NCBI GenBank assembly: GCA_951406725.2
Contig: OX597827.1
Span: 80,352,001-80,416,000 of the forward strand
Length of the DNA stretch: 64,000 nucleotides
Origin: Octopus vulgaris
Taxonomy: Eukaryota
Reading direction: 5' to 3'
The position numbers and the translations under genes were made by a program. A model generated the notes under the pieces. It saw nothing but the letters and a program-made list of their open reading frames with translations. It had not been told where the DNA came from and did no database searches. Shown here one piece after another: positions 16,638 to 62,512 of the stretch (within the stretch, counting starts at the first letter, position 1; each line of letters opens with the position of its first letter).

Positions 16638-19350
16638 TTGAAATTTTGAGTATTTCTCTATGAAGTTGAAATTTCCCACCCTTGGGTATTGGCCCTATTG
16701 AGTAGAGAGTGAATCAGATGGGGTGTCAGAAGTCAAAGCTGAATAATCTTCTACAGCATCATCATTAGAGTTTACTAAAACTGGTCGGCTGCACTTCTGT
16801 TTAAAAATATAGCAAATGATTAGTAAGGAAAATTATCAATTCTAATCAAAGGAAATTGGAGAAAAATTTTAGTCAAATATGTTTGTAAAAATAAATTTTT
16901 TAAATTTTGTATCAATTTAAAAGTTACTGTCAAGAAACGGTTCTTACCAATAAAAGTTTGGGTAAAGTTCTGCTTTGAACTTTATATTTGTTCTGTAGCT
17001 GACCTTCTGCTTAACATTCACTCTTGGATCTCTCAGAATAGATATTCCGCTTCACCATCTCTTCTGCATTCCTCGACATAGCAACAGAAGTGTTAGTCTG
17101 TTACAACAATTGTTTCATCTCTGCTCTACCTTGGTAGGCTGTATTCTTTGTGGCAGCAGCTGTGTTATCTCTGTGTTTAATACATTTCATAATACACAGC
17201 GTTATAGAAACAACAATAGCCACTGATATTATTACTGCTGATGATACAATGATAATAACCCATGTCATATGGACCCGACCTGAAGATTGTAAAGGTCCAC
17301 TTTTCGACATTGGTGATGTCTCGTTACTAACAGCCAATACCAAAGTGACACTAGTTGTTGACGACTGAACTGGACTACCACTGTCCTTCACAACAAACAC
17401 CAGCTCATAACTTCCAGCATCATTTAGATAAACTTGTCTGGAGAAGGATAAAGCACCACTGTGTGAGTTCATACTAAACAACTGTTTATCATTTCCTTGT
17501 ATGATTGCATATCTGAGGAAAGCATTGTTTCCACTGTCCCCATCAGAGGCTCTCAAAACTGTGATGTCACTCTTACTCTGCGGATGGTACTGCACATTTA
17601 GCGTGTAAGGGTCACTACTAGGATATGTAAAATACGGAGCATTGTCATTTTGATCAAGAATCTCAACAACAACATTCGCTGTGTCATTCAGAGATGGGCT
17701 TCCATTATCTTTGACAAAAACCTCAAACTTATACACATCTTGTTTCTCTCTGTCCAATGACATGGTTGCTGAAATGAAGCCATAACTGGTGATGAGAAAT
17801 GGGAGATTGGATTTTTCTTTACGCAGCAGAGAATATGTGAGTTGTCCAGCAGATTCAAGATCAGGGTCAGTGGCATTGACAAAACCAATAGGGAAGTCTT
17901 TATCTTTGTTTTCGTAGGTGAGGAATTGGAATGTATCTTTGGTAAACTGTGGTTGTACATCGTTGATGTCAGTCACTTGGATAGAGAGGCTTTTAACACT
18001 TTTAAGAGGAGGTAATCCTTTATCTTGACAGGAGACAGGAATGTTATAGTGTCCTTGTGTTTCTCTGTCCACTGGTTTGTTTAGAATGATTTTATATTCT
18101 TTAGATCCCATTGACTGTAGTTTGAATGTAACATGTTTGACATTACAGCTGACCTCTCCATTTTGTCCCACATCATTGTCAGTGACCATCACATAAGCAA
18201 TGAAACTACCAACTTTGATGTCTTCCAGAATGGTAGCTGTGTTGTGATTCTGTGTAGAAATAAAGTTCACATCAATATTTGGAGGATTGTTGTGTTGGTT
18301 GATGACATTTACTGAAACTGTGGTTATAGAACTGAGAGGTGGCTTATCTCCATCTCTGGCCTCTATAAACAGTTCATAAGTTGTCTTTCCATCTGATTTT
18401 CATTATTTAGTTGAAAATATTTCTCTAGTGTTTTCATTTAGATCCAAATATCCCTTTGCTTGGCTGGGAGCATTGGGGCTGAAATGATATGTAACTTTAC
18501 CATTTTCTCTGGGATTAGTATCTGTCTCTCATAAAACAAGTTTCTTTTTTGTCTTAATCTGTTCTGATTGAAATATTATAAAGAAATTTTGTGAACACAG
18601 GAATATTGTCCTTTAGTGTGATTACAGCATCTAAAGAACTTTCTTGAGGAGCAGCTCCTCCATCTTTAGCTACGATTCATTCAGGTATCATAACTGTCTC
18701 TTATTTCAATATCTACTGGTTTTTCAAAGGCAATTCTTGACAAATGATATGTCATCTGTTCTTTTAGAAATTGCCAAAGAAAATACTTTGTTGTGATTTT
18801 AAAAAAAATGTTTGTAATAAATGACTTTTGCATCTCCACATCCTTAACTATGGTGTTTGGTATTGATAACTGAAGTCTCTCGCCATCACTTTCTAAAAAC
18901 TAAATACTGACTTTCTTAACAGAGAACTCAGGCTGATGGTCGTGAATGTCTTGTAGAATAACTTTGAAATTAAGTGTTTCTGTAAAAGGTTTGGCTTTGT
19001 GCACAATAAATTTAATATTTCTAGAACATTCTTTATTATATATACAAAATGGCTCTGCATAAGGTTTTTGAATTTTGTGTCATTCCTTTGCTCGTTAGAA
19101 AGTGGAGTAAAATTATGTTTTGGTTGATTACATGTTATTAATTGTTGTTCTGAAGATTTGATATCCAAGAGTTTTGAGTTGGCATCTGTGTCTGCTGCAT
19201 AAGTTCCAAGTCTTCTTTCTTCTTCTTCAGCCTTATAGATAAAGTCTGTAGCATGATACTTTTGTAAGAAGAGTATTAAGAAGGCCAATGACAGAAATAT
19301 GTTGCTTGCAGCAGTGATAATGATGAAAGGGATCAAATTGAGAATATTAT
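16638..19350 (-). pseudogene. Protocadherin pseudogene psi-E (large exon 16948-19350; tail exon 16638-16796)
   Basis: Start codon reads ATA at 19298-19300 (CAAC ATA TTT CTG TCA vs CAAC ATG TTC CTG TCA in A/B). EC1-EC3 carry many frameshifts and stops. EC4-TM (~16985-18240) is almost identical to the intact genes but has TAC>TAA (17101-17103) and TAT>TAA (~17012). Tail exon KCSRPVLVNSNDDAVED has a TAG. Acceptor at 19351-53, donor at 16947. Confidence 0.9.
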
Positions 19351-20290
19351 CTGCAACGAAAACAAAACCATGTTAAAATATAACACACTGCACTTTCACA
19401 AAAAAAAACAAAAAAAAAAAAGAAATGTAAATGTTGAACTTTGAGATTATTTACTCTATAGAAAACTGAAAACTGTCTGCTAAAAGGTTTACATTAACTG
19501 TTCCTTAGATAAATAGACTTATAGGGGTTCATCAATTTGAACATTATATGAACTAATCCTGCTTTTAGATATTTTGTTTAGAAAGCTTGTTTTGCCTTAA
19601 CTGAGCAAAACTAAGATGACAAACATTCCAATTATGACCATCTCTTCCTTTTGTATATCTAGGATTATCTAGGTTCAAATAGGCGTTCAATTTTTTAAAG
19701 GCAGTGAGTGTTATTTGAGGGATATATGGCAGCTATTTTTGGCAAATTATGAGACCTATATGCATTAATTATCATTTTACAACTATAAACATTTGTTCAG
19801 TCTTGATTGTATAGATTAGTTTTTAGTATCTGGTTCATATATTTACAATTTAAGGATGTGTTTCCTTGAAGTTTGTCAAATATTTTTCAAATAGCTTCAT
19901 GCAGTTCAGGTTAGGATATTAAAGTAATTCCTAATTACAATTAAAACTTTGACAGGCAGGTCTGAAGGGATTCTATCAAATGCTAGAGCTGAGATGAAGC
20001 AGATATATCCGATGTACAGAAAGGGAGATGGAAGGGAACCTCAGTCAGTTTCTTCACAACCAAAGAATATAGATAAAAATTATTCTCATAGACTAATAGT
20101 ACATTTGTAGGTTAAGTAGGTACATTGTTGGTAGAAAAATGGATAAAATAATTAGTCTTAGCCTAATCATAGGCAACAGAACAGCAGCAGTTATTTCCAC
20201 AAATGTATGCTAACCAGGGCTGACAGACGAGCATAAGAATAATTTCAACCAGGAACTCATGCACACTGCCTCAATAATGAAAGGAAGCAA

Positions 20291-21869: not shown

Positions 21870-22200
21870 GGAGTAAAGATTGTTTGCCAACATAACATGG
21901 CAGTCCTGGTTTAGGATGAATGTTGCTGTAATTCAGCCCCGGGAGACATCGTCTCCAGTTGGCTATACAACCCGATCTGTGTCCTTATATTTTTGAACAA
22001 GGGAATCTAGCACACCCACTCAGCTCAAAACAATATTTGCATATCACGATTTCCGGGTTATTTCCCTTCATCAGCACAGAATAATTGTTTGGCAAGAGGT
22101 GACGCTGCCAAATTCCTGTTCGAAATGTATAGTTTCCAAAGTGACAACCAGTCACTGAATATCTCACGTTGTGAGATTTACAAATAGTAATTTTCTTATT
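21870..22200. mobile_element. Second copy of the 210-553 repeat
   Basis: 21870-22100 aligns directly with 267-500; 22156-22198 is the reverse complement of ~211-254. Confidence 0.7.
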
Positions 22201-25302: not shown

Positions 25303-25382
25303 TTATGTGTGTTTTAGATAGGTTTCCTGGTTTTCATCTTTTTTCAATGTACAATCTTCATTGTTTTTGTAGATATTGTTTC
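25303..25382 (-). CDS. Protocadherin D, coding exon 3 (terminal): (G)NNIYKNNEDCTLKKDENQETYLKHT*
   Basis: Polypyrimidine acceptor TTTCTCATTTCCATTTCAG; phase 1 matches exon 2; homologous in length and motifs to exon 3 of A and B. Confidence 0.8.
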
Positions 25383-25575
25383 CTGAAATGGAAATGAGAA
25401 ATATTCAATAGGAACCAATAAACAGAATTGTTTTAATAGCACAAATTGTAAGAGAAGTTATAAGAAAGAAAATGAATCCATTAAAAATATTGATCCCCTA
25501 ACTTATAAATATAAATTCAGTACACTAAATACAAAATATTAATATAAAATTTAAAATGTTAATTATTAGCACATT

Positions 25576-26575: not shown

Positions 26576-26738
26576 CTGACATCTCTGGTATTTCTTCATA
26601 ATGTTTCAGATTTCCTACACTGGGTCCATGTTCGTTATTTCGCTGGGAAGACAGTGTTCCTGTCTGATATGTTGATGTCAGACTACTTACTTCAACAGCA
26701 TCATCATTCGAAGTCACCACAACTGGCTGACTGTACTT
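26576..26738 (-). CDS. Protocadherin D, coding exon 2: KYSQPVVVTSNDDAVEVSSLTSTYQTGTLSSQRNNEHGPSVGNLKHYEEIPEMS(G)
   Basis: Acceptor TTTTCATTATACAG, donor CAG|GTGACT, 163 nt, phase 0 to 1, open; homologous exons follow all five large exons. Confidence 0.88.
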
Positions 26739-26893: not shown

Positions 26894-29266
26894 TTGGGTA
26901 GGTTTTGGTAAAGTTCTCGACTGAACTGAAGATTCATATTTGTTCTGTAGCTGACCTTCTGCATAACATTCACTCTTGGATCTCTCAGAATAGATATTCC
27001 GCTTCACCATCTCTTCTGCATTCCTCGACATAGCAACAGAAGTGTTAGTCTGGTACAACAATTGTTTCATCTCTGCTCTACCTTGGTAGGCTGTATTCTT
27101 TGTGGCAGCAGCTGTGTTATCTCTGTGTTTAATACATTTCATAATACACAGCGTTATAGAAACAACAATAGCCACTGATATTATTACTGCTGATGATACA
27201 ATGATAATAACCCATGTCATATGGACCCGACCTGAAGATTGTAAAGGTCCACTCTTCGACATTGGTGATGTCTCGTTACTAACAGCCAATACCAAAGTGA
27301 CACTAGTTGTTGACGACTGAACTGGACTACCACTGTCCTTCACAACAAACACCAGCTCATAACTTCCAGCATCATTTAGATAAACTTGTCTGGAGAAGGA
27401 TAAAGCACCACTGTGTGAGTTCATACTAAACAACTGTTTATCATTTCCTTGTTTGATTGCATATCTGAGGAAAGCATTGTTTCCACTGTCCCCATCAGAG
27501 GCTCTCAAAACTGTGATGTCACTCTTACTCTGCGGATGGTACTGCACATTTAGCGTGTAAGGGTCACTACTAGGATATGTAAAATACGGAGCATTGTCAT
27601 TTTGATCTAGAATCTCAACAACAACATTCGCTGTGTCATTCAGAGATGGGCTTCCATTATCTTTGACAAAAACCTCAAACTTATACACATCTTGTTTCTC
27701 TCTGTCCAATGACATGGTCGCTGAAATGAAGCCATAACTGGTGATGAGAAATGGGAGATTGGATTTTTCTTTACGCAGCAGAGAATATGTGAGTTGTCCA
27801 GCAGATCCAAGATCAGGGTCAGTGGCATTGACAAAACCAATAGGGAAGTCTTTATCTTTGTTTTCGTAGGTGAGGAATTGGAATGTATCTTTGGTAAACT
27901 GTGGTTGTACATCGTTGATGTCAGTCACTTGGATAGAGAGGCTTTTAACACTTTTGAGAGGAGGTAATCCTTTATCTTGACAGGAGACAGGAATGTTATA
28001 GTGTCCTTGTATTTCTCTGTCCACTGGTTTGTTTAGAATGATTTTATATTCCTTGGATCCCATTGACTGTAGTTTGAATGTATCATGTTTGATATCACAG
28101 CTGACCTCTCCATTTTGTCCCACATCATTGTCAGTGACCATCACATAAGCAATAAAACTACCAACTTTGATGTCTTCAGAAATGGTAGCTGTGTTGTCAT
28201 TGATTGCAGAAACATAATCAATATCAATAGATGGAGGATTGTTGTGTTGGTTGATGACATTTACCAAAACAGTTGCTATGGAACTGAGGGGAGGACTACC
28301 CCCATCTCTGGCCTCTATGAACAGTTCATATGTTGTTTTTTCATCTAATTTAGAATACTTAGTTGAAAATATTTCTCCACTGTTTTCATTTAAATCAAAA
28401 TATCCCTTTGCTTGGCTGGAAGTTTTGGGGCTGAAATGGAAAGTAATTTTACTATTGGAACCCGCATCTTTGTCTGTCACTGACAAAGTAAGAATAGGTT
28501 TTGTCTTGTCGTGTGTGGTTCTAATGGAAATATTATAAAGTGGTTTTGAAAATACAGGTGGATTATCATTCTCATCTTCGACAACAATCTCAACATTTAA
28601 TACACTTTGTTTAGATGGAGAACCTCCATCTTTAGCAATTACTTCTAAATTGTATTTCTCTTTTAACTCTCTGTCTAATTTCTGTTTTAAAACAATCTTT
28701 AACGAGGAAATACCATCAGCTCTTTTGGAAACTGTCAGGGAAAATGAGTCATCAGATTTTTTAACTTTGTATTCAATGAAAGAATTTTGATAACTCACAT
28801 CTTTGTCTATGGCATTTGGAATTGACTTTTTCATTCCTCTCCCATCACCTTCCCTAAATTGTAGAGTGATTTGTTTTTCTGGAAACTCTGGTTCGTGGTC
28901 ATTGATATCCTCTATTACTATTTTGATTTTCAATATTTTTGTAAATGACTTTGTTTTCCGAACAACAATTTTAATAATCCGAGAACATTCTTTGTTGTAT
29001 GTACAAAGTGATTCGGCATCAAGTTTCTGAGAAGTGTAAAGTTTCCCTGTTTTGGTCACATTGAAATATTGTGTCACTTTTCTTTTGAGTTGACTGAATG
29101 TCACCATTTGCTGTTCAGTGGATTTGACATTGTCCAACAGTTTCGAATCGGCAGCAATGTCTGCTACGTATGTTCCTGGACTTCTCTCTTCTTCTATATG
29201 ATAAGTGAGGTCTACACTAAGACACGTATGAAACAGTGAGAAGATGATCCAGAGTGGGAACCACAT
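26894..29266 (-). CDS. PCDH: Protocadherin D, large coding exon 1 (signal peptide, six cadherin repeats, TM, proximal tail); full protein ~871 aa
   Basis: 805-aa ORF with DINDHEPEF, LDRE, A.DGG.P and DQNDNAP cadherin motifs, EC1 C-X5-C and hydrophobic TM WVIIIVSSAVIISVAIVVSITLCIM. Donor CAA|GTAAGT at 26893; 5'UTR acceptor TTGTTGCAG at 29321-23. Symbol is family-level only. Confidence 0.96.
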
Positions 29267-34519: not shown

Positions 34520-36880
34520 AGGATTAAACACTCGAAGTCTGTAGTTGATTTTTCGATGTAAAAGTCACATTTTAAATACACTGCTGATATAAGACAGCAA
34601 TAATAATAACAATAGATATTTAGTTATTATTTCCTTTTGCTAAGGTTATATCTGATGTTGAAAGATTGAAAGAAAAATTCAGGAGTGAGGGAAAATATTG
34701 CTTATTGTTGTCTGTGTTTATATGTTTCAGATAATTTTTTTTTTTTTTTGGGGGGGGGGGAGAGATAGTGATTTTGTAATGTAGTTTCTGCATTGGTTTT
34801 GGTATGTGTTATCTCCTAAAACAGAGAGTATAAAGTGATTTAATACAGAGAAATTTAGAGAAAAACATTTTCAAAACAGTTAGCTATCTTATCCCAATGA
34901 TTGTGCTATAAAATCTGTCTAAAACAAAGAACATTGGTTAAAATGTAAATTATTTAAGAAAACGAAGAATCAGTTGATTGAATTTCGTTCTCCTTACTGC
35001 TGCTCCATATCCATATTTAAAATTAAGAAATACAAATATTTCTGAAAAGTTTCAAAGAATAATCAATAAGATAAATACAAGTGGATAAGCAAAATTAATA
35101 GCATAAAGCTTTATTCCTTAAATCTTTGTTAAGGAAATTAAATTTTACCTGATACTCCAGGTATTTCTTCATGTTTTGTATCTTTCCCTATTTCACTATG
35201 TTCTTGAATTGATACTGTGTTGGGTCAGAAATTTCACAGAGTTGAGCAGTCGTCCAAACTATCATTGTTAGATGTGACCAACTGGTTGAATATTTCTAAT
35301 CGAAAAGAAATATGATAGAACTTAGAACATAATTTCAATCAAGATAATAAATTGTCATTATTGAACTAGATTTGCTAATTAAGGATCACAGCTAAATTAA
35401 ATGTAAACTTCAATTATACAATGTCAATGAATTGTTATACATGTCTATAAATAGTGTTTAATAAATTAAAATAAATAAAATAATAAAAATTAAATAAAAT
35501 CTTACTAAAGATTTAGGAAAGGTTCTGTTTGAATAGATATTCCGCTTCACCATCTCTTCTGCATTCCTCGACATAGCAACAGAAGTGTTAGTCTGGTACA
35601 ACAATTGTTTCATCTCTGCTCTACCTTGGTAGGCTGTATTCTTTGTGGCAGCAGCTGTGTTATCTCTGTGTTTAATACATTTCATAATACACAGCGTTAT
35701 AGAAACAACAATAGCCACTGATATTATTACTGCTGATGATACAATGATAATAACCCATGTCATATGGACCCGACCTGAAGATTGTAAAGGTCCACTCTTC
35801 GACATTGGTGATGTCTCGTTACTAACAGCCAATACCAAAGTGACACTAGTTGTTGACGACTGAACTGGACTACCACTGTCCTTCACAACAAACACCAGCT
35901 CATAACTTCCAGCATCATTTAGATAAACTTGTCTGGAGAAGGATAAAGCACCACTGTGTGAGTTCATACTAAACAACTGTTTACCATTTCCACTGCTTTT
36001 TTAGAACTATTTTATATTCCTTTGATCCCATTGACTGTAGTTTGAATGTGTCATCTTTGAGATGACAGTTCACCCGTTGGACACAAACGGTCCTCTAACT
36101 ATTGATATAGACTTTATTTCTACTCCAAATGACATAACTACTATTTCTGAAGATATCAAAGTTGGTAGTTTCATTGCTTATGTGATGGTCACTGAAACTA
36201 CCAACTTTGATATCTTCAGAAATAGTAGTTATGTCGTTATTTGGAGTAGGAATAAAGTCTATATCAATAGTTAGAGAACCGTTTTTTTCATTTATTATAT
36301 GAACCAGAACAGTGTCTACAAAGAGAATATTGCTTTCAACTCTGGCTTCACATATAATTCACAATTTATTTTCAGCCACACATTGATATCTGCTTATTAA
36401 TACTCCAATTTTTCATTTAATTTAAAGTGCTTTAATTTTATATATGATGTTTTAGGATTTGCAATATAATGTTATTTTGCTGTTTTCTCCTGCATTTGAG
36501 CCAGATGCTATCACTGTAATAACTGGTTTCATCTTGTCGTATGTTCCCTCCAGTGATGCACGATAAATATTTTGAATAAGGGAGGCTAATAGTCATCATT
36601 CATGTCTTCAATTTGTTTTGGTACGGCTGTTCTAACTTCAGCAGAAATTTTACCATATCTGTTTTCAAGGTCTCTCTCTCTAATTTCCACTCCACAATGA
36701 TTTTTATTGATTATATCTGATCAAACCTCTTTGCTAAATGATATTCATTTAAAGACTTCTTCAGTCCTACATCTCTATATACTGGAATGGAAGATTTATT
36801 CCTTCACCATATTGATCCCTCAAAGTTATTTCTTCAACAAGAACCATAATGATATTCATTAAAGAATTTTGTTTTAACCT
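34520..36880 (-). pseudogene. Protocadherin pseudogene psi-C (rearranged large exon 35506-~36880; tail exon 35149-35295; possible exon 3 relic ~34524-34590)
   Basis: 35531-35990 is near-identical to the EC6-TM-tail of intact genes. A ~570-bp deletion joins EC4 (KEYKIVLKK) to EC6, a ~66-bp tail deletion is present, and an inverted duplication lies at 36085-36284. EC2/EC3 are decayed (TYDKMKPVITVIASGSNAGENSKITLY). The tail exon ends KHEEIPGVS|GT with stops. Confidence 0.9.
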
Positions 36881-38399: not shown

Positions 38400-41300
38400 C
38401 TGGTGTTTGCCTAGCCCCACCCCACCACCAAATGAACAAAAGGACTACTTTTATGGTATTCTTCTGCAAGCTACCTCAAAGATGAAAGGCAATGATCTCA
38501 TCTTCATAGCTGGGAATTTCAATGGGCATAGTGGGCAGCAGCCAGGTATCTTCCATGGTGTACATGGGGGCCAGGGAATTGGTTCCCAAAATAAAGAGAG
38601 GGAACAAGGCTACTGGAGCTTTGTGATGCAAATAACCTATTGATCTGCAACACCAACTAGAGGAAGCCTGCCAGCCACTTGATAACCTATTAACTGAGTG
38701 ACCATGCTGGCCAGATTGATTACATTCTCACCAGACAGCGAGATACATGGTTGCTCATGAATGCAAAGACCTTCCCTGGTGAAGAATTTACCCACCAGCA
38801 TAAACTAGTCATTAGTGACTTTAATCTTCAAGCCAGAAGGATGCCAAGAAGCAGACCAATCTAGAAAAGAAGGATTTGGAAGCTTAAGGATCCCTTATAT
38901 GGTCAGAGATTTAGGGACACTCTAATTTAGAAATTTGATGAGAAGGAGGAGGAACTACTGACTTGTATCATAGGGGGTAACTGGGAATTCCTGTGGGACA
39001 GCTTGCTGAGTGCCAAAGACCAAATCTGTAGCTGGTGCAAAGTCTCACCCAGACCTAGGGTGATGTGGTGGTGGAATAATGTTGCTGACAAGGCTACCAG
39101 AGCAAAGAGACAGGCCTGGAAGGAGTAGTAGATTGGGGGTAGCAGAGAATTGCAGAAGATAGCCAGAAGGGAAGCTAGGAGACCGGTATATCTAGCCAAA
39201 GGAAAAGTAGAAAAGAAATTAGCCCATCTTCTGTGATGTGAGGACCAGAGACTTGAAGCATGTGAGAGAAAATCGTACTGTGGTATGAGGGAAATGTATT
39301 TGCATAGATGATGGTGCATTTGCATTTATTGATTTTGCAAAGAAAGAGGCTTGGAAATGCTATTATGAAAGGCTGCTAAATGTGGAGAATGGAGAATGAA
39401 TGGGAAAAGGAGCGTATGCCAAATGATGACCCAGCTGGGGGACCAGCTATCCAAATCAACAGTAGCTTAGTGGATAAAGCAATTAAGGATATGAAAACAG
39501 GGAAAGCCCCTGGTTCATCAGGAATCTCTGCTGAGATGATTAAAATATCTATCAGAGTAGGATACAGCCTAGTCACCTGTATAGTTAATCAGGTTATCCA
39601 TGAGGGAGTCATATGCAACAATTGTTGTAGCAGCATTATAGTCAACTGCTACAAAGGGAAAAGTGATGCCTTAGACACAGATAATTACAGAAGCATCACA
39701 TTGCTGGACCAGGCGATGAAAGTCACAGAAAAGGTTATAGTTCAATTAATTAGGAAGAGGGTTAGTGTAAATGAGATGTAGTTTGGATTTGTGCCAGGCA
39801 AGAGCACATATATATTCCTGGGGAGGCAACTACAGGAGAAATATTTAGCCAGAAATAATCCTCTGTATCTGGCTTTTGTTGCCATGGAGAAAGCCTTTGA
39901 CAGAGTCCCTCTGGTGGTCAATGTGGAAGCTAAGGATAGATGAGTGGTTGGTGAGATCTGTACAAGCCATGTACAGGGATGCTATTAGTAAGGCGAAGGT
40001 TAGCAATGAGTATAGCAATGAATTCAGGGTACAAGTAGGGGTTCACCAAAGATCAATCTTCAGCCCCCTCTTGTTCATCTTAGTCCTCCAGGCAATAACA
40101 AAAGGAATTTAAGATGGGCTGCCCCTGGGAGCTCCTCTTTGCTGACGACTATGTTCTTATAGCTGAAACACTACCAGAATTAGAGAAGAAATTTCAGGTG
40201 TGGAAGCAAGGTCTAGAATCAAAAGGCCTTAGAGGTAATCTAGTAAAACCCAAAGTCTTAGTAAATAGGGAAGCAGACGAATCAGAAATCCCTTCAGGTA
40301 GATGGTCCTGTTTGATATATAGAAAAGGTATAGGCAGCAACTCCATAAGCTGTACCCCTATGGATACATAAGAGGCACAGCAATATCAGAGGAAGGATAA
40401 CAAGGAAGAAGGTGAACAGGTACAATTAACATTAAAAATGTATGGAAAATAGACTCTGTCAAATGCCAGGGGAAAAACTACAAGTAGCTGATAGCTTCCA
40501 TTACCTAGGTGACCAGGTCAGTAGCAGGGGTGGATACTCCAAGAGCATAGCTGCTAGAATAAGAATAGGTTGGGCAAAGTTCAGAGTGCTCCTACCTCTG
40601 TTGGAAACAAAGGGCCTCTCACTCAGAGTGAAAGGCAGATTGTATGATGCCTGTGTGTGAACAGCCATGCTACATGGCAGTGAAACATGGAGTATGACCA
40701 CTGAGGACATACATAGGCTTGAAAGAAATGAAGCTAGTGTGCTCTGTTGGATGTGCAATGTCATGTCATTGTGTAAGCATCTTGAAAGAAAAGTTGAGCA
40801 TGAGAGGCATCAGATGTGGTGTGCAAGAGGTGCGACTGTGCTGGTATGGTCATGTGATGCATATGGACAAGGACAGCTGTGTGAAGAAGTGCCGCACTCT
40901 AATGGTTGAAGGAACCTGTGAAAGAGGTAGACCCAGGAAGACATGGAATGAGGTGGTGAAGCATGTTCTTTGAACATTGGGTCTCAAGGAGACAATGACA
41001 AGTGACTGAGACCATTGAAGATATGCTGTGCTTGTGAAGGAAGACCTGGAAAGCCAAGTGAAATCATAGTCATGGCCGATGCCAGTGTCGCATAACTGGC
41101 ACCTGTGCTGGTGGCAGGTAAAAAGCACCCTTTGAACATTGGGTGATATGCTGTGCTTGAGAAGATCTGTCAAACCAAGTGAGATCCAGTCATGGCCAAC
41201 ACTGGCGTTGTGTAACTGGCACCCGTGCCGGTGGCATGTAGAAAGCGCCCACTACACTCTTGGAGTGGTTGGAATTAGGTAAGGCATCCAGCTGTAGAAA

Positions 41301-44957: not shown

Positions 44958-45037
44958 TCACACGTGTTTAGGGTAGGTCTCTTGATCCTGATTTCTGTTT
45001 AGTGTTGATGTTATACTGTTTTTATATGTATCATTTC
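44958..45037 (-). CDS. Protocadherin B, coding exon 3 (terminal): (G)NDTYKNSITSTLNRNQDQETYPKHV*
   Basis: Strong acceptor (T)nCCAG, phase 1, homologous to exon 3 of A and D. Confidence 0.85.
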
Positions 45038-45356
45038 CTGGAAAAAAAAAAAAAGAAGAAAACAAATGAAAAACATAAAAATTCATTGCAAAATGAAGTT
45101 TGAATATTTTGACATGTTTCTGTCCACCAAATTCCACTGACAAGATATTGGTCAACTCAAGTCTTTGGTAGAAGACACTTGCCCAAGGTGTCAAGTAGTT
45201 GGATTGAACCTAGAAACATGTGTTAACAAAGCAAATTTCTTAACTAAAAAGCCATGCCTATATAGTTTATAATAATAATTAAACATTATATTTCAAGCAA
45301 AATGTCATGTGATTAGGTTAGAAGGGAAGGTTCATAATAATAATAATAATAATAAT

Positions 45357-46215: not shown

Positions 46216-46354
46216 AGAAGTTGAATAAGATGCTTTGTGTTTTCATTTAGAAGACATCATTTTTATGATGAATTATGAACAGCTATACATTAATACTTGT
46301 TTATTTTGCTTAATTGTTTAAATTCAATTTCAAAACTGGGGATATCTTTCCTAC

Positions 46355-46499
46355 CTGAGGAGGTTACTGGTATCTCTTCATAATGTTTAGTACGACTGCT
46401 AGTCTGACTCGACAAGGTGTTAGTTGGATAGTTCGAAACAACAGATGTATCTTCCACAGCATCATCATTCGATGTTACCACAACTGGTTCGCTGTATTT
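46355..46499 (-). CDS. Protocadherin B, coding exon 2: KYSEPVVVTSNDDAVEDTSVVSNYPTNTLSSQTSSRTKHYEEIPVTSS(G)
   Basis: Acceptor (T)nGTAAACAG, donor CAG|GTAGGA, 145 nt, phase 0 to 1, open. Confidence 0.88.
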
Positions 46500-47092: not shown

Positions 47093-49468
47093 TGAAGATG
47101 GTTTAGGAAGGGTTCTGCTTTGAACTGAAGATTCATATTTGTTCTGTAGCTGACCTTCTGCATAACATTCACTCTTGGATCTCTCAGAATAGATATTCCG
47201 CTTCACCATCTCTTCTGCATTCCTCGACATAGCAACAGAAGTGTTAGTCTGGTACAACAATTGTTTCATCTCTGCTCTACCTTGGTAGGCTGTATTCTTT
47301 GTGGCAGCAGCTGTGTTATCTCTGTGTTTAATACATTTCATAATACACAGCGTTATAGAAACAACAATAGCCACTGATATTATTACTGCTGATGATACAA
47401 TGATAATAACCCATGTCATATGGACCCGACCTGAAGATTGTAAAGGTCCACTCTTCGACATTGGTGATGTCTCGTTACTAACAGCCAACACCAAAGTGAC
47501 ACTAGTTGTTGACGACTGAACTGGACTACCGCTGTCCTTCACAACAAACACCAGCTCATAACTTCCAGCATCATTTAGATAAACTTGTCTGGAGAAGGAT
47601 AAAGCACCACTGTGTGAGTTCATACTAAACAACTGTTTATCATTTCCTTGTATGATTGCATATCTGAGGAAAGCATTGTTTCCACTGTCCCCATCAGAGG
47701 CTCTCAAAACTGTGATGTCACTCTTACTCTGCGGATGGTACTGCACATTTAGCGTGTAAGGGTCACTACTAGGATATGTAAAATACGGAGCATTGTCATT
47801 TTGATCTAGAATCTCAACAACAACATTCGCTGTGTCATTCAGAGATGGGCTTCCATTGTCTTTGACAAAAACCTCAAACTTATACACATCTTGTTTCTCT
47901 CTGTCCAATGACATGGTCGCTGAAATGAAGCCATAACTGGTGATGAGAAATGGGAGATTGGATTTTTCTTTACGCAGCAGAGAATATGTGAGTTGTCCAG
48001 CAGATCCAAGATCAGGGTCAGTGGCATTGACAAAACCAATAGGGAAGTCTTTGTCTTTGTTTTCGTAGGTGAGGAATTGGAATGTATCTTTGGTAAACTG
48101 TGGTTGTACATCGTTGATGTCAGTCACTTGGATAGAGAGGCTTTTAACACTTTTCAGAGGAGGTAATCCTTTATCTTGACAGGAGACAGGAATGTTATAG
48201 TGTCCTTGTGTTTCTCTGTCCACTGGTTTGTTTAGAATGATTTTATATTCTTTAGATCCCATTGACTGTAGTTTGAATGTATCATGTTTGACATCACAGC
48301 TGACCTCTCCATTTTGTCCCACATCATTGTCAGTGACCATCACATAAGCAATGAAACTACCAACTCTGGTGTCTTCCGAAATGGTAGCTGTGTTGTCATT
48401 GACTGAAGAAACATAATCAATATCAATAGATGGAGGATTGTTGTGTTGGTTGATAACATTTACCAAAACAGTTGCTATAGAACTGAGAGGAGGGCTGCCC
48501 CCATCTCTGGCTTCAATAAAAAGTTCATAGGTTTTCTTTTTACTCAGATTTGAATATTCCCTTAACAAAATTTCCCCACTCGTTTCATTTAACTGAAAAT
48601 AGCTTTTTGCAAGATCTGATGTCTTTGGGCTGAAATGGAAAGTAATTTTACCATTTTCACCAGCATCAGCATCAGTTACAGATAAAACAATGATGGGTTT
48701 GGATTTGTGATGTGCACTTTGTATGGATATATTATATAGAGGTTTAGAAAATACAGGTGGGTTGTCATTGTCATCTATTATGGAAATATTTATGTTTAAA
48801 ATCCCTTGTTTTGCTGGCGAACCTCCATCTTTAGCTATGACTTGTAATAAATATGTATCTTTGATTTCTCTGTCTAATGATTCTTTTAAAACTATTTTAA
48901 GAGAAGAAATACCATCAGCTCTTTTAGACACTGACAGAGAGAATGGTTCTCCATTCTTTGATTTTAATTTATATTGTATTAAGGAATTTTGAAATCCAAC
49001 ATCTTTGTCCATAGCATTGGGTATTGATCGTTTTGTGCCTTTTCCATCTGTTTCCGAGAACTTTAATGAAATTTGCTTTTTGGGAAACTCAGGGTGATGG
49101 TCATTGATGTCTTCTATTACTATTTTGATTTTTAATATTTTTGTAATACTTCTTCCTTTATTGACAACAACCTTCACAGTTCTGGAACATTCTTTGTTGA
49201 ATGTGCAGAGATCTTCTGCATCCAGTGTCTGAGCAGTGTACAGTTTACCTGTTTTGGTGATGTTAAATAACTGTGCCACCTTTCGTTTGAATTGACTGAA
49301 TGTTATCAAATGTTGGTCAGATGGTTTAACATTGTCTAAAAGTTTAGAATCGGCAGCAATGTCTGCTACATATGTTCCTGGACTTCTCTCTTCTTCCACA
49401 TGGTAGGTAAGGTCTATGGTCAGGACACAGTGGACCAGTGACAATACAATAGAAAATGACAGGAACAT
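47093..49468 (-). CDS. PCDH: Protocadherin B, large coding exon 1 (SP, EC1-EC6, TM, proximal tail); full protein ~866 aa
   Basis: 830-aa ORF with six cadherin repeats and TM; donor TCA|GTAAGA at 47092; 5'UTR acceptor CTCTTTTTAG at 49522-24. Symbol is family-level only. Confidence 0.96.
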
Positions 49469-53311: not shown

Positions 53312-53388
53312 TTAGACATGTTTCACTGGTGTTTCTTCACTAGAATCTTTTGATGTAGATGTGTCATTGTTTTTATAAATACTTTGAT
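53312..53388 (-). CDS. Protocadherin A, coding exon 3 (terminal): (D)QSIYKNNDTSTSKDSSEETPVKHV*
   Basis: Acceptor TTTTGTTTCTAAATTTCAG, phase 1, homologous to exon 3 of B and D (YKN, ET, KHV*). Confidence 0.82.
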
Positions 53389-53739
53389 CTGAAATTTAGA
53401 AACAAAATACACGTTTTACAAAATTATGATGTTGATGACCATTTTGCTAAGCAATATTAAAAAGAAATGCACTCCACAATGTAGAGCAAAGGTTTTTCCA
53501 ATAAAATGATGGACAAATGGGTCAAAAAAGATCTCAATATTTAGGATACGGTTTATATATTAATCTGAAGCTGAACCTGTCATTGGTATTCAGCGTGGCA
53601 ATGAAGGAAAGACCCAACTTTACTAAATATATATGTATTTTCTTCTCTACTATTTAGCTACAAAAAAAAACTTCACAAAGTGATTGAAAATAATAATTTC
53701 TTTGTAAAATTTGCATGAACATGACAGGGATAAGACTAA

Positions 53740-54150: not shown

Positions 54151-54399
54151 ACGCATCGCCTTATTCAGTTCTTACATTTTTAAGAATCTAGAATATAAAT
54201 AAAATCTAATTCTTACACCCTGACAGTTTATATACTTAAGAAGTTTGCTTTTCAACCACATGGTTGTGGGACTGATTCCACAGCCAGCACCTTGGGCACA
54301 TGTCTTCTGCTATATCCCTAGGCCAAAGAAAGCCTAGTGAGTGGATTTGGATGAGAGAAACTGTAAGAAGCCTGATACACACACATGTAGTAAATAGGA

Positions 54400-55200
54400 A
54401 TACAGATAAATCACTGGTCCCTTCAGGGAGATGTCCCTACCCAATACATAGAAAAGGTGCTGGTAGAAATTCCATACAACGTGCCCAATCTAAGCTATGG
54501 ACACATAAGAAGTGCAGCTGTATCAAAGGAAGGTTAACAGAGAACGTAGTCATTATGTATGGCAGATGTGCAGGGACAATAAACATTAGGATTATTTAGA
54601 AAATAAAAATTCTCTCAAATTTCTGGGCGATATCCTTAGAAACAGTAGATAGTTTCTGTTACCTAGATGACCAAATTATCAGTGGAGGAGGAAGCTCTGA
54701 AAGTGAAGTTACTAGAATGACAATGGGCTGGGCAAAGTTCAGGGAGTTGCTACCTTATTAACAACAACAGAGTGAAAGGTAAACAATATAACAACTGTGT
54801 ATGAACAGCTATGCTGCATGGCAGTGGAACATGGGCTGTGACTACAGAGGACATGCAAAGGCTTCAAAGAAATGAAGCCAGCATGCTCCACTGGATGGGT
54901 TATGTCATTGTGCATGCATGACAGAGTGTTTAAGGATTTAAGAGAAAAACTGGGTATAAGGGGTATCTGAAGTAGTGTGCAAGAGGGAGGACTGTGCTGG
55001 TATGGTCATGTGATGCATATGGATGAGGACAGTTGCCTAAAGAAGTGCCGATCTGTAATTGTGGAGGGAACTTATGGAAGGGGTTAACCCAGGGAGACCT
55101 GAAATGAAATGGTGAGAAAGGATCTTCAGATATTGAACCTCAATGAGAAGTGAGTGACATGTTTGGCAATTTGCTGTGCTTGAGAAAACACATCAAGCTT
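54400..55200 (+). mobile_element. 5'-truncated RTE-LINE fragment
   Basis: Aligns with 40280-41040 (ggctgggcaaagttcaggg, atgctgcatggcagtggaacatgg, ctggtatggtcatgtgatgc). Confidence 0.8.
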
Positions 55201-56518: not shown

Positions 56519-56532
56519 GTATGCACAGTGAC

Positions 56533-59500
56533 AATTGTCTCTGCCTACACCCTGCCAAGTGGGTCTACCAAATGAACAAAAGGACTGTTTTTATGATATT
56601 CGTCTGCAAGCTAGGGATATCAATGGGTATGTCAGGCAGCAACCTGGTATCTTCCATTGTGTACATAAGGGCTATGGAATTGGTTCCTGAAATGAAGAGA
56701 GGACAAGGCTACTGGAGTTCTGTGATGCAAATAACCTATTGATCTGCAACACCAACATCAAGAAGCTAGCCAACCACCTGATAACCTACCAATCAGGTAG
56801 CTATGCTAGCTAGATCGATTACATTCTCATCAGACAGTAGGATGCATGGTTGCTCATAAATGCAAAGACCTTCCCTGGTGAAGAATGTACCCACCAGCAT
56901 AGAATAGTCATTAGTGACTTGAGACTTCAGGCTAGAAGGAAACCAGGAAGCAGACCAATCTGGAAAAGAAGGATTTGGAAACTTGAGGACCCTTTATATG
57001 GTCAGAGATTTAGGGACACCCTAATTGAGAAATTTGATGAGAGGGAGGAGGAACTACAGACTTGTAACAGAGTGGGCAACTGGGAATTCCTGCAGGACAG
57101 CTTGCTGAGTGCCAAAGACCAAATCTTCAGCTGGTGCAAAATCCCATCGAAACTTAGTGTGATGAGGTGGTGGAATGATGCTGTAGACAAAGCCATTAGA
57201 GCAAAGAAATGCCTGGAAGAGTGGAGGTAGCAGGTAACTGTATCATATACCCAGAAAGGAAACTAAGAGACAGGTATATCTTGGCCAGGGAAAAAACAGA
57301 AAAGAAGTTTGCCTGTGTTCAGTGATGTGAGGACCAAAAACTTGAAATATTTCAGATTGCAAGACAGTGTGTTAGAGAAAATCGTGATGTCATAGGAGAG
57401 AAATGTATCCACATGGATGATGGTGCAGTTACATTTAATGATTCTGCAAAGAAAGAGGCTTAGAAATGCTATTATGAAAGGCTGCTAAATGTGGAGAATA
57501 AATGGGAGAAGGAGAACCTGCCAAATGTTGACCCAACAGAGGAATCAGCTAGCCAAATCAACAATAGCTTAGAGGATACTGGTGTCTTGCAAATGGCACT
57601 TATGCCAGTGGCATGTAAAAGCTCCCATTACACTCTTGGAGTGGTTGGTGTTAGGAAGGTCATCCAACCGCAGAAACCACGCCAAGTCAAACTATGGTTT
57701 GGTGTAGCCCCTCAGCCTACCAGCCCTTCTCAAACTGTCCAACACATACCAGTATGGACAACAGACATTAAATAATGATGATCATGATGATGATGTATGA
57801 ATGTATGCATACATATCTCTGTGTGTGTGTTTGTATATGTATATATATTTGAGCAGAGGTTTCGGATTTGTGCCATTCAGGAGCACAAGAGATGCTATAT
57901 TTCTAGTTAGGCAACTACAGGAGAAGCCAAAAATAAATCCCTGTTGACATGGAGAAAGCCTTTGACAGGATTCCTCACTACCTTATCTGGTGGTCAATAT
58001 GTAAGTTAGGGAGAGGTGAGAGCTGTACAAGCCCTGTACAGGAATGCTGTCAATAAGGTGAAAGTCAGCAACAAGTATAGTGAGGAATTCAGGGTACAAG
58101 TAGTGGTTCACCAAGGATCAGTACTCAGCCCCCTCTTGTTCATCATAGTCCTCCAGGCAATAACAAAAGGAATTTAAGACAGGCCGTCCCTGGGAGCTCC
58201 TCTATGCTGATGACCTTGTTCTTATAGCTGAATCATTACCAGAACTAGCGAAGAAGTTTCAGGTATGGAAGCAAGGTCTAGAATCAAAGGGCCTTTAACC
58301 TAGCAAAAACCAGAGTCTTAGTAAGTAGGAGGGCAGACAAATCACAAGTTCTGTTAGGCAGATGGCTCTGCTGGATTTGTAGGAAAAGTGTTGCGATAAA
58401 CTCCATAAGATGTATCCAGTGCGTGCTATGGACACATAAGAGGCACAGCAATATCAGAGAAAGGTTAACTGGGAAAATAGTTTTTGTGTGTGGAAAGTGC
58501 ATAGATATAATTAACACTAAAAATGAACAGAAAATAGACACCATCAACTGCCAGTGAGGTAATCTAGAGGTAGTAAGATAGCTTCTATTATCTTGGTGAG
58601 CAAGTTAGTAGGGGGTGGGAGTGGATGCTTTGAGAGCATAGCTGCAAGAATAAAATAGGCTAGGCAAAGTTCAGAGAGCTCCTACCACTGCTGGCAACAA
58701 AGGACCACTCCCTCAGACAGACTGCATGAAGTCTGTGTGAACAGCTATGCTACACAGCAGTGAAACATGGGCTGCAATAGCCAAGGACATGCGTAGGCTT
58801 GAAAGAAATAAAGCTAGCATGCTTCACTGGATATGCAATGCCAGTGTGCATGTACAACAGTGTTTAAGCAGCTTGAGAGAAAAGTTGGGCATAAGAGACA
58901 TCAGATGTGGTGTGCAAGAGAATTAACTGTGCTGGTATCATCATATGATGCCTATGGACAAGGATAGCTGTGTAAAGAAGTGCCGATGTCTAATTGTGGA
59001 GAGAATCTGTGGTAGAGATAGACCCAGGAAGATATGGGATGAGGTGGTGAAGCATGATCTTCGAACTTTGAACCTCACAGAAAAAAAATGACTAGTGACT
59101 GAGACCTTTGGCGATATACTGTGCTAGAGAAAACCCATCATGCCAAGTGAGATCGTAGTTGTGGCTAATGCTGGTGTCTTGTAATTGGCACCCTTGCCAG
59201 TGGCATGTAAAAAGCATCTGTTGAGCATTGGGCCTCACAGAGGTAATGTGGCCAGTACCGGCGGAATGTGAAAAGCAGCTTTTGTGTGTTGGGCCTCATG
59301 GAGGCAATGACAAATGATCAAGACCTTTGGTAATATACCGAGATTGAGAAGATGACTGATGAAGCCAAGTGAAATTATAGTAATGGAAGATACTGGTGTC
59401 TTGCAAATGGCACTTGTGCCAGTGGCATGTAAAAGCTCCCATTACACTCTTGGAGTGGTTAGTGTTAGGAAGGTCATCAAACCGTAGAAACCACACCAAG

Positions 59501-59600
59501 TCAAACTATGGTCTGGTGTAGCCTCTCAGCCTACCAGCCCTTATCTAACTGTCCAACACATACCAGTATGGACAACAGACATTAAATAATGATGATGACG
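56533..59600 (+). mobile_element. Degenerate RTE-clade LINE in intron 2 of A (same family as 38400-41405)
   Basis: Collinear with the 38.4-41.4 kb copy (NAKTFPGEECTHQHRIVISD, HQGSVLSPLLF, ELLYADD), ending in a (GAT)n tail. Confidence 0.9.
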
Positions 59601-59620
59601 ATATATATATGAATGTATGC

Positions 59621-59652
<32 letters not shown>

Positions 59653-59811
59653 TTGTATATGTATATATATTTGAGCAGAGGTTTATATTGGAATTCAGAG
59701 AAGCAACAAATCAAAAAGGCACAGCTTTTTCAAACAATGTTGATAATGATGTTAGAAATAGCCATTACATTTAAAATGATAATGTAAAATATAGACATTG
59801 TAGTTACTAAC

Positions 59812-59965
59812 CTGATACTCCTGGTATTTCTTCATAATGTTTCAAGTCTCCTTGTCTACCACTTCTCTTGGATGACATTGTATCTGATGTATAGTTGCAA
59901 ACCATAGTAGCATTATCTTCCACAGCATCATCACTTGATGTCACCACAACAGGTTGACAGTATTT
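59812..59965 (-). CDS. Protocadherin A, coding exon 2: KYCQPVVVTSSDDAVEDNATMVCNYTSDTMSSKRSGRQGDLKHYEEIPGVS(G)
   Basis: Acceptor TTTGTTTGTCATTAG, donor CAG|GTTAGT, 154 nt, phase 0 to 1, open. Confidence 0.88.
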
Positions 59966-60136
59966 CTAATGACAAACAAACGATAAAGAAATGTGAGAAG
60001 ACACCAAACAATGGAAGTTACAATCAACATGGATAGAGAACAATTTAATAGTGGAATGTATTATTGAAGTTAAAACATATTCAAAGAGATTTCATTGTTC
60101 ACTTTTACAGAGAGAAAATGTAATGTTTCCACTTAC

Positions 60137-62512
60137 TGGGGTAGGTTTTGGTAAAGTTCTTGACTGAACTGAAGATTCATATTTGTTCTGTAGCTGACCT
60201 TCTGCATAACATTCACTCTTGGATCTCTCAGAATAGATATTCCGCTTCACCATCTCTTCTGCATTCCTCGACATAGCAACAGAAGTGTTAGTCTGGTACA
60301 ACAATTGTTTCATCTCTGCTCTACCTTGGTAGGCTGTATTCTTTGTGGCAGCAGCTGTGTTATCTCTGTGTTTAATACATTTCATAATACACAACGTTAT
60401 AGAAACAACAATAGCCACTGATATTATTACTGCTGATGATACAATGATAATAACCCATGTCATATGGACCCGACCTGAAGATTGTAAAGGTCCACTTTTC
60501 GACATTGGTGATGTCTCGTTACTAACAGCCAATACCAAAGTGACACTAGTTGTTGACGACTGAACTGGACTACCACTGTCCTTCGCAACAAACACCAGCT
60601 CATAACTTCCAGCATCATTTAGATAAACTTGTCTGGAGAAGGATAAAGCACCACTGTGTGAGTTCATACTAAACAACTGTTTATCATTTCCTTGTATGAT
60701 TGCATATCTGAGGAAAGCATTGTTTCCACTGTCCCCATCAGAGGCTCTCAAAACTGTGATGTCACTCTTACTCTGTGGATGGTACTGCACATTTAGCGTG
60801 TAAGGGTCACTACTAGGATATGTAAAATAGGGAGCATTGTCATTTTGATCTAGAATCTCAACAACAACATTCGCTGTGTCATTCAGAGATGGGCTTCCAT
60901 TATCTTTGACAAAAACCTCAAACTTATACACATCTTGTTTCTCTCTGTCCAATGACATGGTCGCTGAAATGAAGCCGTAACTGGTGATGAGAAATGGGAG
61001 ATTGGATTTTTCTTTACGCAGCAGAGAATATGTGAGTTGTCCAGCAGATCCAAGATCAGGGTCAGTGGCATTGACAAAACCAATAGGGAAGTCTTTATCT
61101 TTGTTTTCGTAGGTGAGGAATTGGAATGTATCTTTGGTAAACTGTGGTTGTACATCGTTGATGTCAGTCACTTGGATAGAGAGGCTTTTAACACTTTTAA
61201 GAGGAGGTAATCCTTTATCTTGACAGGAGACAGGAATGTTATAGTGTCCTTGTGTTTCTCTGTCCACTGGTTTGTTGAGAATGATTTTATATTCTTTAGA
61301 TCCCATTGACTGTAGTTTGAATGTATCATGTTTGATATCACAGCTGACCTCTCCATTTTGTCCGACATCATTGTCAGTGACCATCACATAAGCAATGAAA
61401 CTACCGACTTTGATGTTTTCAGAGATGGTACCTGTGTTATAATTGATTGCAGAGACATAATCTATATCCATAGATGGAGGATTATTGTGTTGATTGATGA
61501 CATTCACTAAAACAGTTGCAATAGAACTGATTGGAGGATTACCACCATCTCTGGCCTCTATAAACAATTCATAGGTTTTCTTTTTTTCCAACTTGGAGTA
61601 TTTACTTAAGAAAATGCTTCCACTGGTTTCATTTAAAAGAAAATAATTTTTGGCTAGATCTGATGTTTTTGGACTGAAATGGAAAGTAATTTTACCATTT
61701 TCACCTGAATCAGCATCAGTTACAGACAAAACAATGATGGGTTTAGACTTGTGATGTGCACTTTGTATGGATATATTATATAAAGGTTTAGAAAACTCTG
61801 GTGGGTTGTCATTCTCATCCGTTACTGAGATATTTATATTCAAAATACCTTGTTTTGCTGGCGAACCTCCATCTTTAGCTATGACTTGTAATAAATACGT
61901 ATCTTTGACTTCTCTGTCTAATGATTCTTTTAAAACTATATTAAGTGAAGAAATACCATCAGCTCTTTTAGACACTGACAGAGAGAATGGTTCTCCATTC
62001 TTTGATTTTAATTTATATTGTATTAAGGAATTTTGAAATCCTACATCTTTGTCTATGGCATTCGGTATTGATACTTGAGAACCTTTACGATCATTTTCAC
62101 CAAACTGTATATTCACATTCTTTATAGGAAACTCCGGTTCGTGGTCATTGATATCTTCTATTACAATTTTGACTTTTAATATTTTTGTGAAGCTATCCAT
62201 TTTCTTAATAATAACTTTCACAGTTCTGGAACATTCTTTGTTGAATGTGCAGAGATCTTCTGCATCCAGTGTCTGAGCAGTGTACAGTTTACCTGTTTTG
62301 GTGATGTTAAATAACTGTGCCACCTTTCGTTTGAATTGACTGAATGTTATCAAATGTTGGTCAGATGGTTTAACATTGTCTAAAAGTTTAGAATCGGCAG
62401 CAATGTCTGCTACATATGTTCCTGGACTTCTCTCTTCTTCCACATGGTAAGTAAGGTCTATGGTCAGGACACAGTGGACCATTGATAATACAATGGACAA
62501 TGACAGGAACAT
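60137..62512 (-). CDS. PCDH: Protocadherin A, large coding exon 1 (SP, EC1-EC6, TM, proximal tail); full protein ~868 aa
   Basis: 806-aa ORF with six cadherin repeats and TM; donor CCA|GTAAGT at 60136; 5'UTR acceptor TTCTGTTTTAG at 62569-71; the leader exon probably lies beyond the window end. Symbol is family-level only. Confidence 0.96.

What the first reader, a model, noticed from the sequence alone, without database searches (positions are those of the whole stretch)
16985..61420. A constant region made by gene conversion rather than splicing: EC4-EC6/TM/juxtamembrane block ~99% identical across the protocadherin array
Seen: a ~1.2-kb block (E ~16985-18240, D ~26920-28190, B ~47120-48390, A ~60165-61420; ~460 bp survives in C at 35531-35990) is nearly identical at the DNA level, including third codon positions. 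I count only about ten differences between B and D by eye. Immediately outside it, the last ~25 nt of the exon differ, the introns are not alignable, and exons 2/3 and EC1-EC3 of D are heavily diverged, so recent whole-gene duplication cannot explain it. Established: vertebrate clustered protocadherins use EC1-EC4 for trans specificity, EC5-EC6 for promiscuous cis dimers and spliced shared exons for a constant tail; domain-restricted gene conversion is known there. Inference: this independently expanded invertebrate array reaches a variable/constant design by ectopic conversion between complete genes. That would yield receptors with interchangeable membrane-proximal/TM modules but private N-terminal and C-terminal ends.
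Basis: partly seen in the sequence, partly recalled or inferred. Interest (0 to 1): 0.85.

Follow-up and report, generated by a model that had tools for sequence, protein, structure and literature searches.

The report
Octopus protocadherins share a copied half
Neighbouring octopus nerve-cell adhesion genes keep overwriting each other's membrane-near half while their outer recognition parts stay different, the same split seen in the separately evolved vertebrate gene clusters, which suggests octopuses may label neurons in a similar way.

Summary
Real. Four protocadherin copies (A, B, D, pseudogene E) share a 1,224-nt block (EC4 minus its first ~27 residues, EC5, EC6, TM, juxtamembrane) at 98.8-99.1%; block dS 0.03-0.05 versus 0.5-1.5 in EC2-3. 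Gene D equals an Octopus vulgaris protein. Between genera the block diverges like single-copy orthologs (~88%), so this is concerted evolution, not conservation or collapse. Pseudogenes E and C were overwritten too. The pattern recurs in other octopod sub-arrays and in unnamed cuttlefish-like records. Corrections: EC1's first 77 residues and most tails are also homogenised, so ends are not private; vertebrates homogenise EC4-6 by conversion as well, so this parallels that process rather than replacing splicing; key vertebrate cis-dimer residues are absent (Arg/Lys at V560 in 115 of 116). Most likely: homology-driven ectopic conversion, with selection protecting EC2-EC3 specificity surfaces. 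New variant of a known process.

The parts
60137..62512 (-). Gene A exon 1 (signal peptide, EC1-EC6, TM, juxtamembrane), intact
   Evidence: ORF; Pfam cadherin repeats; GT donor
60179..61402 (-). Homogenised block, copy A
62225..62455 (-). Second homogenised island (EC1 residues 19-95), copy A
   Evidence: A-B dS 0.021, dN 0
59813..59965 (-). Gene A exon 2 (common tail type)
   Evidence: tblastn; splice sites
53315..53395 (-). Gene A exon 3 coding part
   Evidence: tblastn (96% to P0002)
47093..49468 (-). Gene B exon 1, intact (= database protein P0122)
47135..48358 (-). Homogenised block, copy B
49181..49411 (-). Second homogenised island (EC1), copy B
46353..46499 (-). Gene B exon 2 (private tail, groups with Argonauta P0012)
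44961..45038 (-). Gene B exon 3 coding part
36081..36313 (.). Pseudogene C: decayed EC3/EC4 junction with a local inverted duplication
35992..36071 (-). Pseudogene C: short EC4 piece upstream of an internal deletion, NOT homogenised (11 of 80 nt differ from D; 25 of 27 aa match the divergent paralog P0168)
35531..35991 (-). Pseudogene C: 461-nt block fragment (EC6 3' part, TM, juxtamembrane), 460/461 to D
35147..35281 (-). Pseudogene C: exon 2 remnant
26894..29266 (-). Gene D exon 1, intact (= database protein P0001, ortholog of Argonauta P0003)
26936..28159 (-). Homogenised block, copy D
26577..26738 (-). Gene D exon 2 (private tail)
25306..25389 (-). Gene D exon 3 coding part
16948..19300 (-). 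Pseudogene E exon 1 (5' half with frameshifts and stops; 5' end approximate)
16984..18207 (-). Homogenised block, copy E (no frameshift; stops at 17103 and 17013)
16626..16796 (-). Pseudogene E exon 2 remnant (in-frame stop)

Best explanation
Shown: the block evolves in concert within each lineage while EC2-EC3 keep old paralog identities. Mechanism (inferred): head-to-tail copies 10-20 kb apart mispair at their long shared exon-1 stretch, and DNA-templated ectopic conversion (with some unequal crossing-over) copies EC4-to-juxtamembrane sequence between them. The 3' edge falls where homology ends near the first intron; the 5' edge falls where old divergence, probably kept by selection on the EC2/EC3 and EC4 strand-A surfaces, interrupts homology. 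The copying needs no function in the recipient (pseudogenes E and C receive it). Purifying selection acts on the block in intact genes. Result (inferred): each sub-array makes receptors with one shared membrane-proximal and TM module and gene-specific EC2-EC3, most likely the trans-recognition surfaces, as in vertebrate clustered protocadherins.
For: Block dS 0.03-0.05 vs 0.5-1.5; permutation 0 of 2,000 in 6 of 6 pairs. Block tree: 22 Argonauta rows one clade (SH-aLRT 96), 24 Octopus rows one clade (98); EC2-3 tree mixes the genera and Argonauta monophyly is rejected, p-AU 2e-5. 36 of 411 block columns are genus-diagnostic, 0 of 369 upstream, 1 of 80 in the tail. D is closer to Argonauta P0003 than to B in signal peptide, EC1, EC2, EC4a and tail (67/87/84/100/69% vs 33/79/68/85/58%) but not in the block (89 vs 99%). 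Control: 9 single-copy-like Argonauta/Octopus pairs are 85-91% in every domain. E has 5 frameshifts and 7 stops outside, no frameshift inside. In C, the 461-nt piece has 1 difference from D, the 80-nt piece cut off by a deletion has 11. Block dN 0.002-0.003 vs dS 0.03-0.05 among A, B, D. The same sites are variable in both genera (Spearman 0.73, residues 96-369), peaking at alternate residues of EC2 132-147; the gamma-B specificity pair 111:294 (PMC5106212, section 5 part 3) maps to octopus 136 and 324, both hypervariable.
Against: EC3 does not favour orthology for D (76% to P0003, 79% to B), and B's EC2-3 does not group with its tail partner P0012, so conversion also reaches EC1-EC3 and orthology is mosaic. 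Of three gamma-B specificity pairs mapped, one fits fully, one maps to conserved prolines (150, 280), one partly; this is a lead at ~30% identity, not a test. EC2-3 dN/dS is 0.12-0.18 among A, B, D: no positive selection shown. The GC signature of conversion is weak (GC3 0.36-0.37 vs 0.23-0.27, p 0.001-0.02; GC4 not significant). No DNA from other species was in hand, so cross-species tests are protein-level, and no read-level check of this assembly was obtained. Conversion and unequal crossing-over were not separated formally.
Confidence: 0.85

Rival explanations
1. Neutral by-product only: conversion homogenises whatever long homology happens to persist, and EC2-EC3 simply drifted past the divergence at which recombination works; no specificity code is being protected.
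For: Pseudogenes E and C carry the block; dN/dS in EC2-3 is well below 1; the length-dependence in C shows a mechanical threshold.
Against: The spared region is the same (EC2-EC3) in every array examined: 0 and 3 of 2,659 same-species octopod pairs reach 92% in EC2 and EC3 against 589 and 557 in EC5 and EC6 (90%-cluster representatives only), and in vertebrates (PMC4978886, passages). The same sites vary in both genera. Drift alone gives no reason for a fixed position.
Confidence: 0.25
2. One reading: the block is kept identical because it forms promiscuous EC5-EC6 cis heterodimers as in vertebrate clustered protocadherins.
For: The block covers EC5-EC6, the vertebrate cis region (PMC8901172, passages); A570 is kept in 111 of 116 and an aromatic residue at Y532 in 112 of 116 aligned coleoid proteins.
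Against: At V560 the 116 proteins have Lys 65, Arg 50, Ile 1; at L555 Asn/Asp/Glu 115; at R595 mostly Ser. V560R is the alpha-Pcdh substitution that blocks the EC6-only side and homophilic cis dimers (PMC8901172), and an Asp at the L555-equivalent blocks surface delivery (PMC5106212). The block also extends ~120 residues past EC6 through TM and cytoplasm.
Confidence: 0.15
3. Array growth by unequal crossing-over or segmental re-duplication with breakpoints inside the block, making chimeras, rather than gene conversion proper.
For: B pairs a private tail with common-type EC1-EC3; E joins a P0168-like EC4 start to the block; 20 of 22 Argonauta tails form one clade.
Against: D keeps both its 5' half and its tail linked in Argonauta P0003 while the middle follows the genus, which needs a patch replacement, not one crossover; C's fragment is bounded by foreign sequence on both sides.
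Confidence: 0.2
4. Assembly or polishing collapse, or extreme purifying selection, creates the identity.
For: Two O. bimaculoides fragments stop inside the block (P0165, P0170), so the block does trouble assemblers; no read-level check was obtained here.
Against: The O. sinensis model P0121 reads B-like gene, C fragment, D-like gene in the same order with the same block; D's private I419 is shared only with its O. sinensis ortholog, 2 of 24 rows; Argonauta shows the pattern with a different block; silent sites are homogenised and the block differs by 11% between genera, which excludes conservation.
Confidence: 0.02

Closest known systems
Domain-restricted gene conversion in vertebrate clustered protocadherins (Noonan et al. 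2004, as summarised in PMC4978886, passages read)
   Same: Tandem six-EC protocadherins; EC4-EC6 homogenised, EC2-EC3 spared; lowest dS in EC5/EC6; intensity varies by subgroup.
   Different: Independently expanded, non-orthologous array of complete multi-exon genes; the tract runs through TM and ~70 cytoplasmic residues up to the first intron; contrast between block and EC2-3 dS is 11- to 50-fold, against ratios of about 2-5 listed for the Xenopus groups seen; no shared spliced constant exons.
Coleoid protocadherin sub-arrays (PMC9068888 and PMC6339937, passages and one section read)
   Same: This is one of them; both papers name gene conversion or recent duplication as the likely cause of within-cluster similarity.
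   Different: Those passages treat whole genes; none seen reports a domain-bounded block, lineage-specific sweeps of it, or conversion into pseudogenes.
Vertebrate alpha-protocadherin EC6
   Same: Arg (or Lys) at the V560 position and Ser at R595.
   Different: Alpha-Pcdhs rely on carrier isoforms with V560; none of 116 aligned coleoid proteins has Val there, so no such carrier is evident.

Membership tests
Coleoid clustered protocadherins | Six EC repeats, TM, short tail | tested here: met
   Pfam Cadherin_2 plus 5 Cadherin repeats in A, B, D; TM stretch in ORFs
Coleoid clustered protocadherins | Head-to-tail array of complete multi-exon genes, no shared exons | tested here: met
   All copies on the minus strand, each with its own exon 2 (A, B, D also exon 3)
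Coleoid clustered protocadherins | Neural expression | not tested
   One search lists runs guessed to be RNA that hold 73-88% of D's sampled words, but none was laid; tissue unknown
Concerted evolution by ectopic gene conversion | Paralogs closer within than between species over the tract | tested here: met
   (protein level, genus scale)
Concerted evolution by ectopic gene conversion | Silent sites homogenised, sharp tract edges, flanks keep older history | tested here: met
Concerted evolution by ectopic gene conversion | GC-biased signature at neutral sites | tested here: inconclusive
   GC3 higher in block, GC4 not significant
Concerted evolution by ectopic gene conversion | Non-reciprocal transfer without flank exchange | tested here: inconclusive
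   Supported for D and C; B and E look chimeric
Vertebrate clustered protocadherins (alpha/beta/gamma) | Variable exons spliced to shared constant exons | tested here: not met
   Each gene has its own downstream exons; PMC9068888 states the same
Vertebrate clustered protocadherins (alpha/beta/gamma) | EC5-EC6/EC6 asymmetric cis interface residues (L555, V560, R595 on the EC6-only side) | tested here: not met
   D583, R588, S623 in gene D; Val at 560 in 0 of 116
Vertebrate clustered protocadherins (alpha/beta/gamma) | Strict homophilic EC1-EC4 trans binding | not testable with these tools
   No cephalopod chain among the named PDB hits; needs assays
Vertebrate clustered protocadherins (alpha/beta/gamma) | Stochastic promoter choice per neuron | not testable with these tools
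   Needs single-cell data mapped on EC2-EC3

The most novel reading that the evidence does not exclude
Across coleoids, every large protocadherin sub-array keeps its own constant membrane-proximal/TM/juxtamembrane module by ongoing conversion while selection protects EC2-EC3 barcodes, so cephalopods reached the vertebrate variable/constant self-recognition design independently, but with sub-array-specific modules and without the vertebrate cis interface (a trans-only or differently assembled code).
Probability: 0.4. Interest if true: 0.82.

Novelty: new variant of a known kind. Interest (0 to 1): 0.63.

Why it matters
Whether cephalopod protocadherins act as neuronal identity tags is open (PMC6339937, section 8: nothing known of their adhesion specificity; PMC9068888 makes no functional claim). 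Finding the vertebrate pattern, EC2-EC3 spared and EC4-EC6 homogenised, in an independent expansion is an evolutionary argument that they do, and it supplies natural test pairs: A, B and D differ almost only upstream of residue 370. Practical point: short reads and probes from the block cannot tell these genes apart, so counts, trees and expression maps should use EC2-EC3.

Tried and rejected
No whole genome was held, so the rest of the array was read only through database proteins. No reads were laid on the window (one search gave no result), so the run list is not used as evidence. Complex prediction of two copies of D EC5-EC6 gave no verdict (score 0.00, alignment not used); it is no evidence either way. 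GC-biased conversion: inconclusive. Tail and EC1 trees did not finish; the tail tree was redone quick (76 columns, long-branch warning), the EC1 tree was not redone; the block tree is the quick one. Albertin et al. 2015 was not held and is known here only through PMC6339937; the one supplement held for PMC9068888 (3,805 characters) had no hits; Noonan et al. 2004 and Wang and Ragsdale 2017 were not read. Paper search returned only irrelevant papers. The scan's earlier notes held nothing. cDNA-mediated conversion was rejected by inference: the tract stops before the first splice donor and exon 2 stays divergent in B, D, E. Three of ten contig groups of unnamed records did not show the pattern.
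Full report
Observation. The window holds five minus-strand protocadherin copies. A, B and D have intact first exons of about 790 codons with six cadherin repeats and their own exons 2 and 3. D is identical to a named Octopus vulgaris protein, P0001, and B is P0122. The core block spans D residues 370-777, 1,224 nt, with 11-15 differences between any two of A, B, D, E. dS is 0.027-0.047 inside and 0.51-1.54 in EC2-3; no shuffle of third positions (0 of 2,000, 6 of 6 pairs) gives so long a clean segment. First introns share nothing, and exon 2 pairs are 58-71% identical.

E is a pseudogene: 5 frameshifting indels and 7 stops upstream of the block, no frameshift within it, 2 stops near its end. 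C is a deleted pseudogene; its 461-nt block piece has 1 difference from D, while the 80-nt EC4 piece that a deletion cut off from it has 11 and matches a divergent paralog, P0168, at 25 of 27 residues. So the block was written into copies of other ancestry that make no protein, and the short homology escaped: what length-dependent homologous recombination predicts (inference). A and B also share a second island in EC1 (residues 19-95; dS 0.02).

Cross-species test. I aligned 11 O. vulgaris, 13 O. sinensis and 22 Argonauta hians subfamily rows plus 4 outgroup rows. The cluster look-up listed 15 of 24 members of one cluster; I dropped two apparent isoforms (P0132, P0138), recovered one of two genes in fused P0142, and some O. 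sinensis rows are damaged models or possible duplicates. Within each species residues 376-775 average 96.7-100% per 25-residue window (two O. sinensis windows are 86-87% because of damaged models); between genera the same windows range 72-99%. The block tree puts all 22 Argonauta rows in one clade (96) and all 24 Octopus rows in another (98); the EC2-3 tree mixes genera and rejects Argonauta monophyly (p-AU 2e-5). 36 of 411 block columns are genus-diagnostic, against 0 of 369 upstream and 1 of 80 in the tail. D groups with Argonauta P0003 by EC2-3 (support 84/73) and by tail (82), B with P0012 by tail (93), yet D-P0003 is 89% in the block and D-B 99%. Against this: D's EC3 is no closer to P0003 than to B, and B's EC2-3 does not follow P0012, so orthology is mosaic. 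The control, 9 Argonauta singletons with an Octopus partner (from 39 singletons in all), is 85-91% in every domain: the block changes at an ordinary pace between genera but in unison within them. O. vulgaris and O. sinensis are not separated in the block, and D's I419 is shared only with its O. sinensis ortholog (2 of 24), so homogenisation is slower than that recent split. The O. sinensis model P0121 runs B-like, C fragment, D-like in the same order, which with the above makes collapse very unlikely; no read-level check was obtained.

Generality. Among 117 octopod cluster representatives, 9 within-species groups share EC5-6 at 92% or more by construction, with EC2 at 55-73%; they fall into at least three sub-arrays with different blocks. 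Of 2,659 same-species pairs, 0 reach 92% in EC2, 3 in EC3, 363 in EC4, 589 in EC5, 557 in EC6, 513 in TM; representatives are under 90% identical overall, which removes recent whole-gene duplicates. In unnamed ENA proteins grouped only by equal contig length, 7 of 10 groups show EC5 at 93-99% with EC2 at 67-83%, and 3 do not; 9 of 9 tested score higher to named cuttlefish than to octopod proteins, so the pattern probably extends to decapodiforms (organism not given).

How it most likely works. Shown: concerted evolution of a bounded tract. Inferred: DNA-templated ectopic conversion between tandem genes, ended 3' by loss of homology near the first intron and 5' by old divergence in EC2-EC3 and the start of EC4. 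Block dN of 0.002-0.003 against dS of 0.03-0.05 in intact genes shows purifying selection on top. That the spared region is the same in each array argues for selection protecting it. The same residues vary in both genera (Spearman 0.73), most at alternate positions 132-147 of EC2; by the alignment to gamma-B4 the gamma-B specificity pair 111:294 (PMC5106212) maps to 136 and 324, both hypervariable, pair 125:253 maps to conserved prolines, and 86:369 fits partly. No positive selection was shown. I put conversion-type concerted evolution at about 0.9 and an EC2-EC3 specificity code at about 0.6.

The cis-dimer idea is weaker. Vertebrate cis dimers need an EC6-only side, and V560R, the alpha-Pcdh state, blocks it (PMC8901172, passages). 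Of 116 aligned coleoid proteins, 115 have Lys or Arg there, 115 have Asn, Asp or Glu at L555, and 95 have Ser at R595; A570 and an aromatic Y532 are kept. At about 30% identity this lowers, not excludes, cis dimers. The ends are also not private: 40 of 46 rows share one tail type and EC1 19-95 is near-invariant.

Comparison and novelty. Conversion of EC4-6 with EC2-3 spared is known in vertebrate clusters (PMC4978886, passages). For coleoids, conversion is suggested at whole-gene level (PMC9068888, passages; PMC6339937, passages and section 8). Seven full-text searches aimed at cephalopod protocadherins showed no domain-level report, but I saw only listings for most hits and could not read Albertin 2015, its supplement, the main supplement of PMC9068888 or Wang and Ragsdale 2017, any of which may mention it. 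It works like the vertebrate process and is not a member of the vertebrate family (no shared constant exons, cis residues not met). Verdict: real, well supported, a new variant of a known kind; a convergence that makes the barcode question for cephalopods directly testable. Interest 0.63.

Noticed in passing
window 36081-36313: Local inverted duplication of the EC3/EC4 junction inside pseudogene C, next to an internal deletion whose ends share a short microhomology.
   Followed up: partly
window 18386-18486 vs 28338-28438: E and D share an older, partly decayed tract in EC3 (13 differences per 100 nt against ~40 around it), a likely earlier conversion event.
   Followed up: no
window 18207-18290: E's EC4 start matches the divergent O. 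sinensis protein P0168 rather than A, B or D, so short tracts also pass between subfamilies.
   Followed up: partly
window 38498-41143, 54388-55198, 56600-59232: Two to three copies of a decayed repeat, 68-80% alike over 0.8-1.4 kb pieces, between B and C and in A's second intron; probably a transposon relic.
   Followed up: no
window 267-498 and 21870-22101; 6268-6447 and 6717-6896: A 232-nt direct repeat at 92% and a 180-nt inverted pair at 99%, MITE- or SINE-like.
   Followed up: no
P0121, P0142, P0177-P0179: Database models fuse several array genes into single 1,600-5,400 aa proteins, some named 'Fat 1-like' or 'cadherin-23-like'; annotation artefacts that distort family counts.
   Followed up: partly
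P0165, P0167, P0170, P0124: O. bimaculoides members of this subfamily appear only as fragments broken at the block; P0165 and P0167 keep Thr at 442 like Argonauta, whereas 24 of 24 vulgaris/sinensis rows have Ser, suggesting a sweep after that split.
   Followed up: partly
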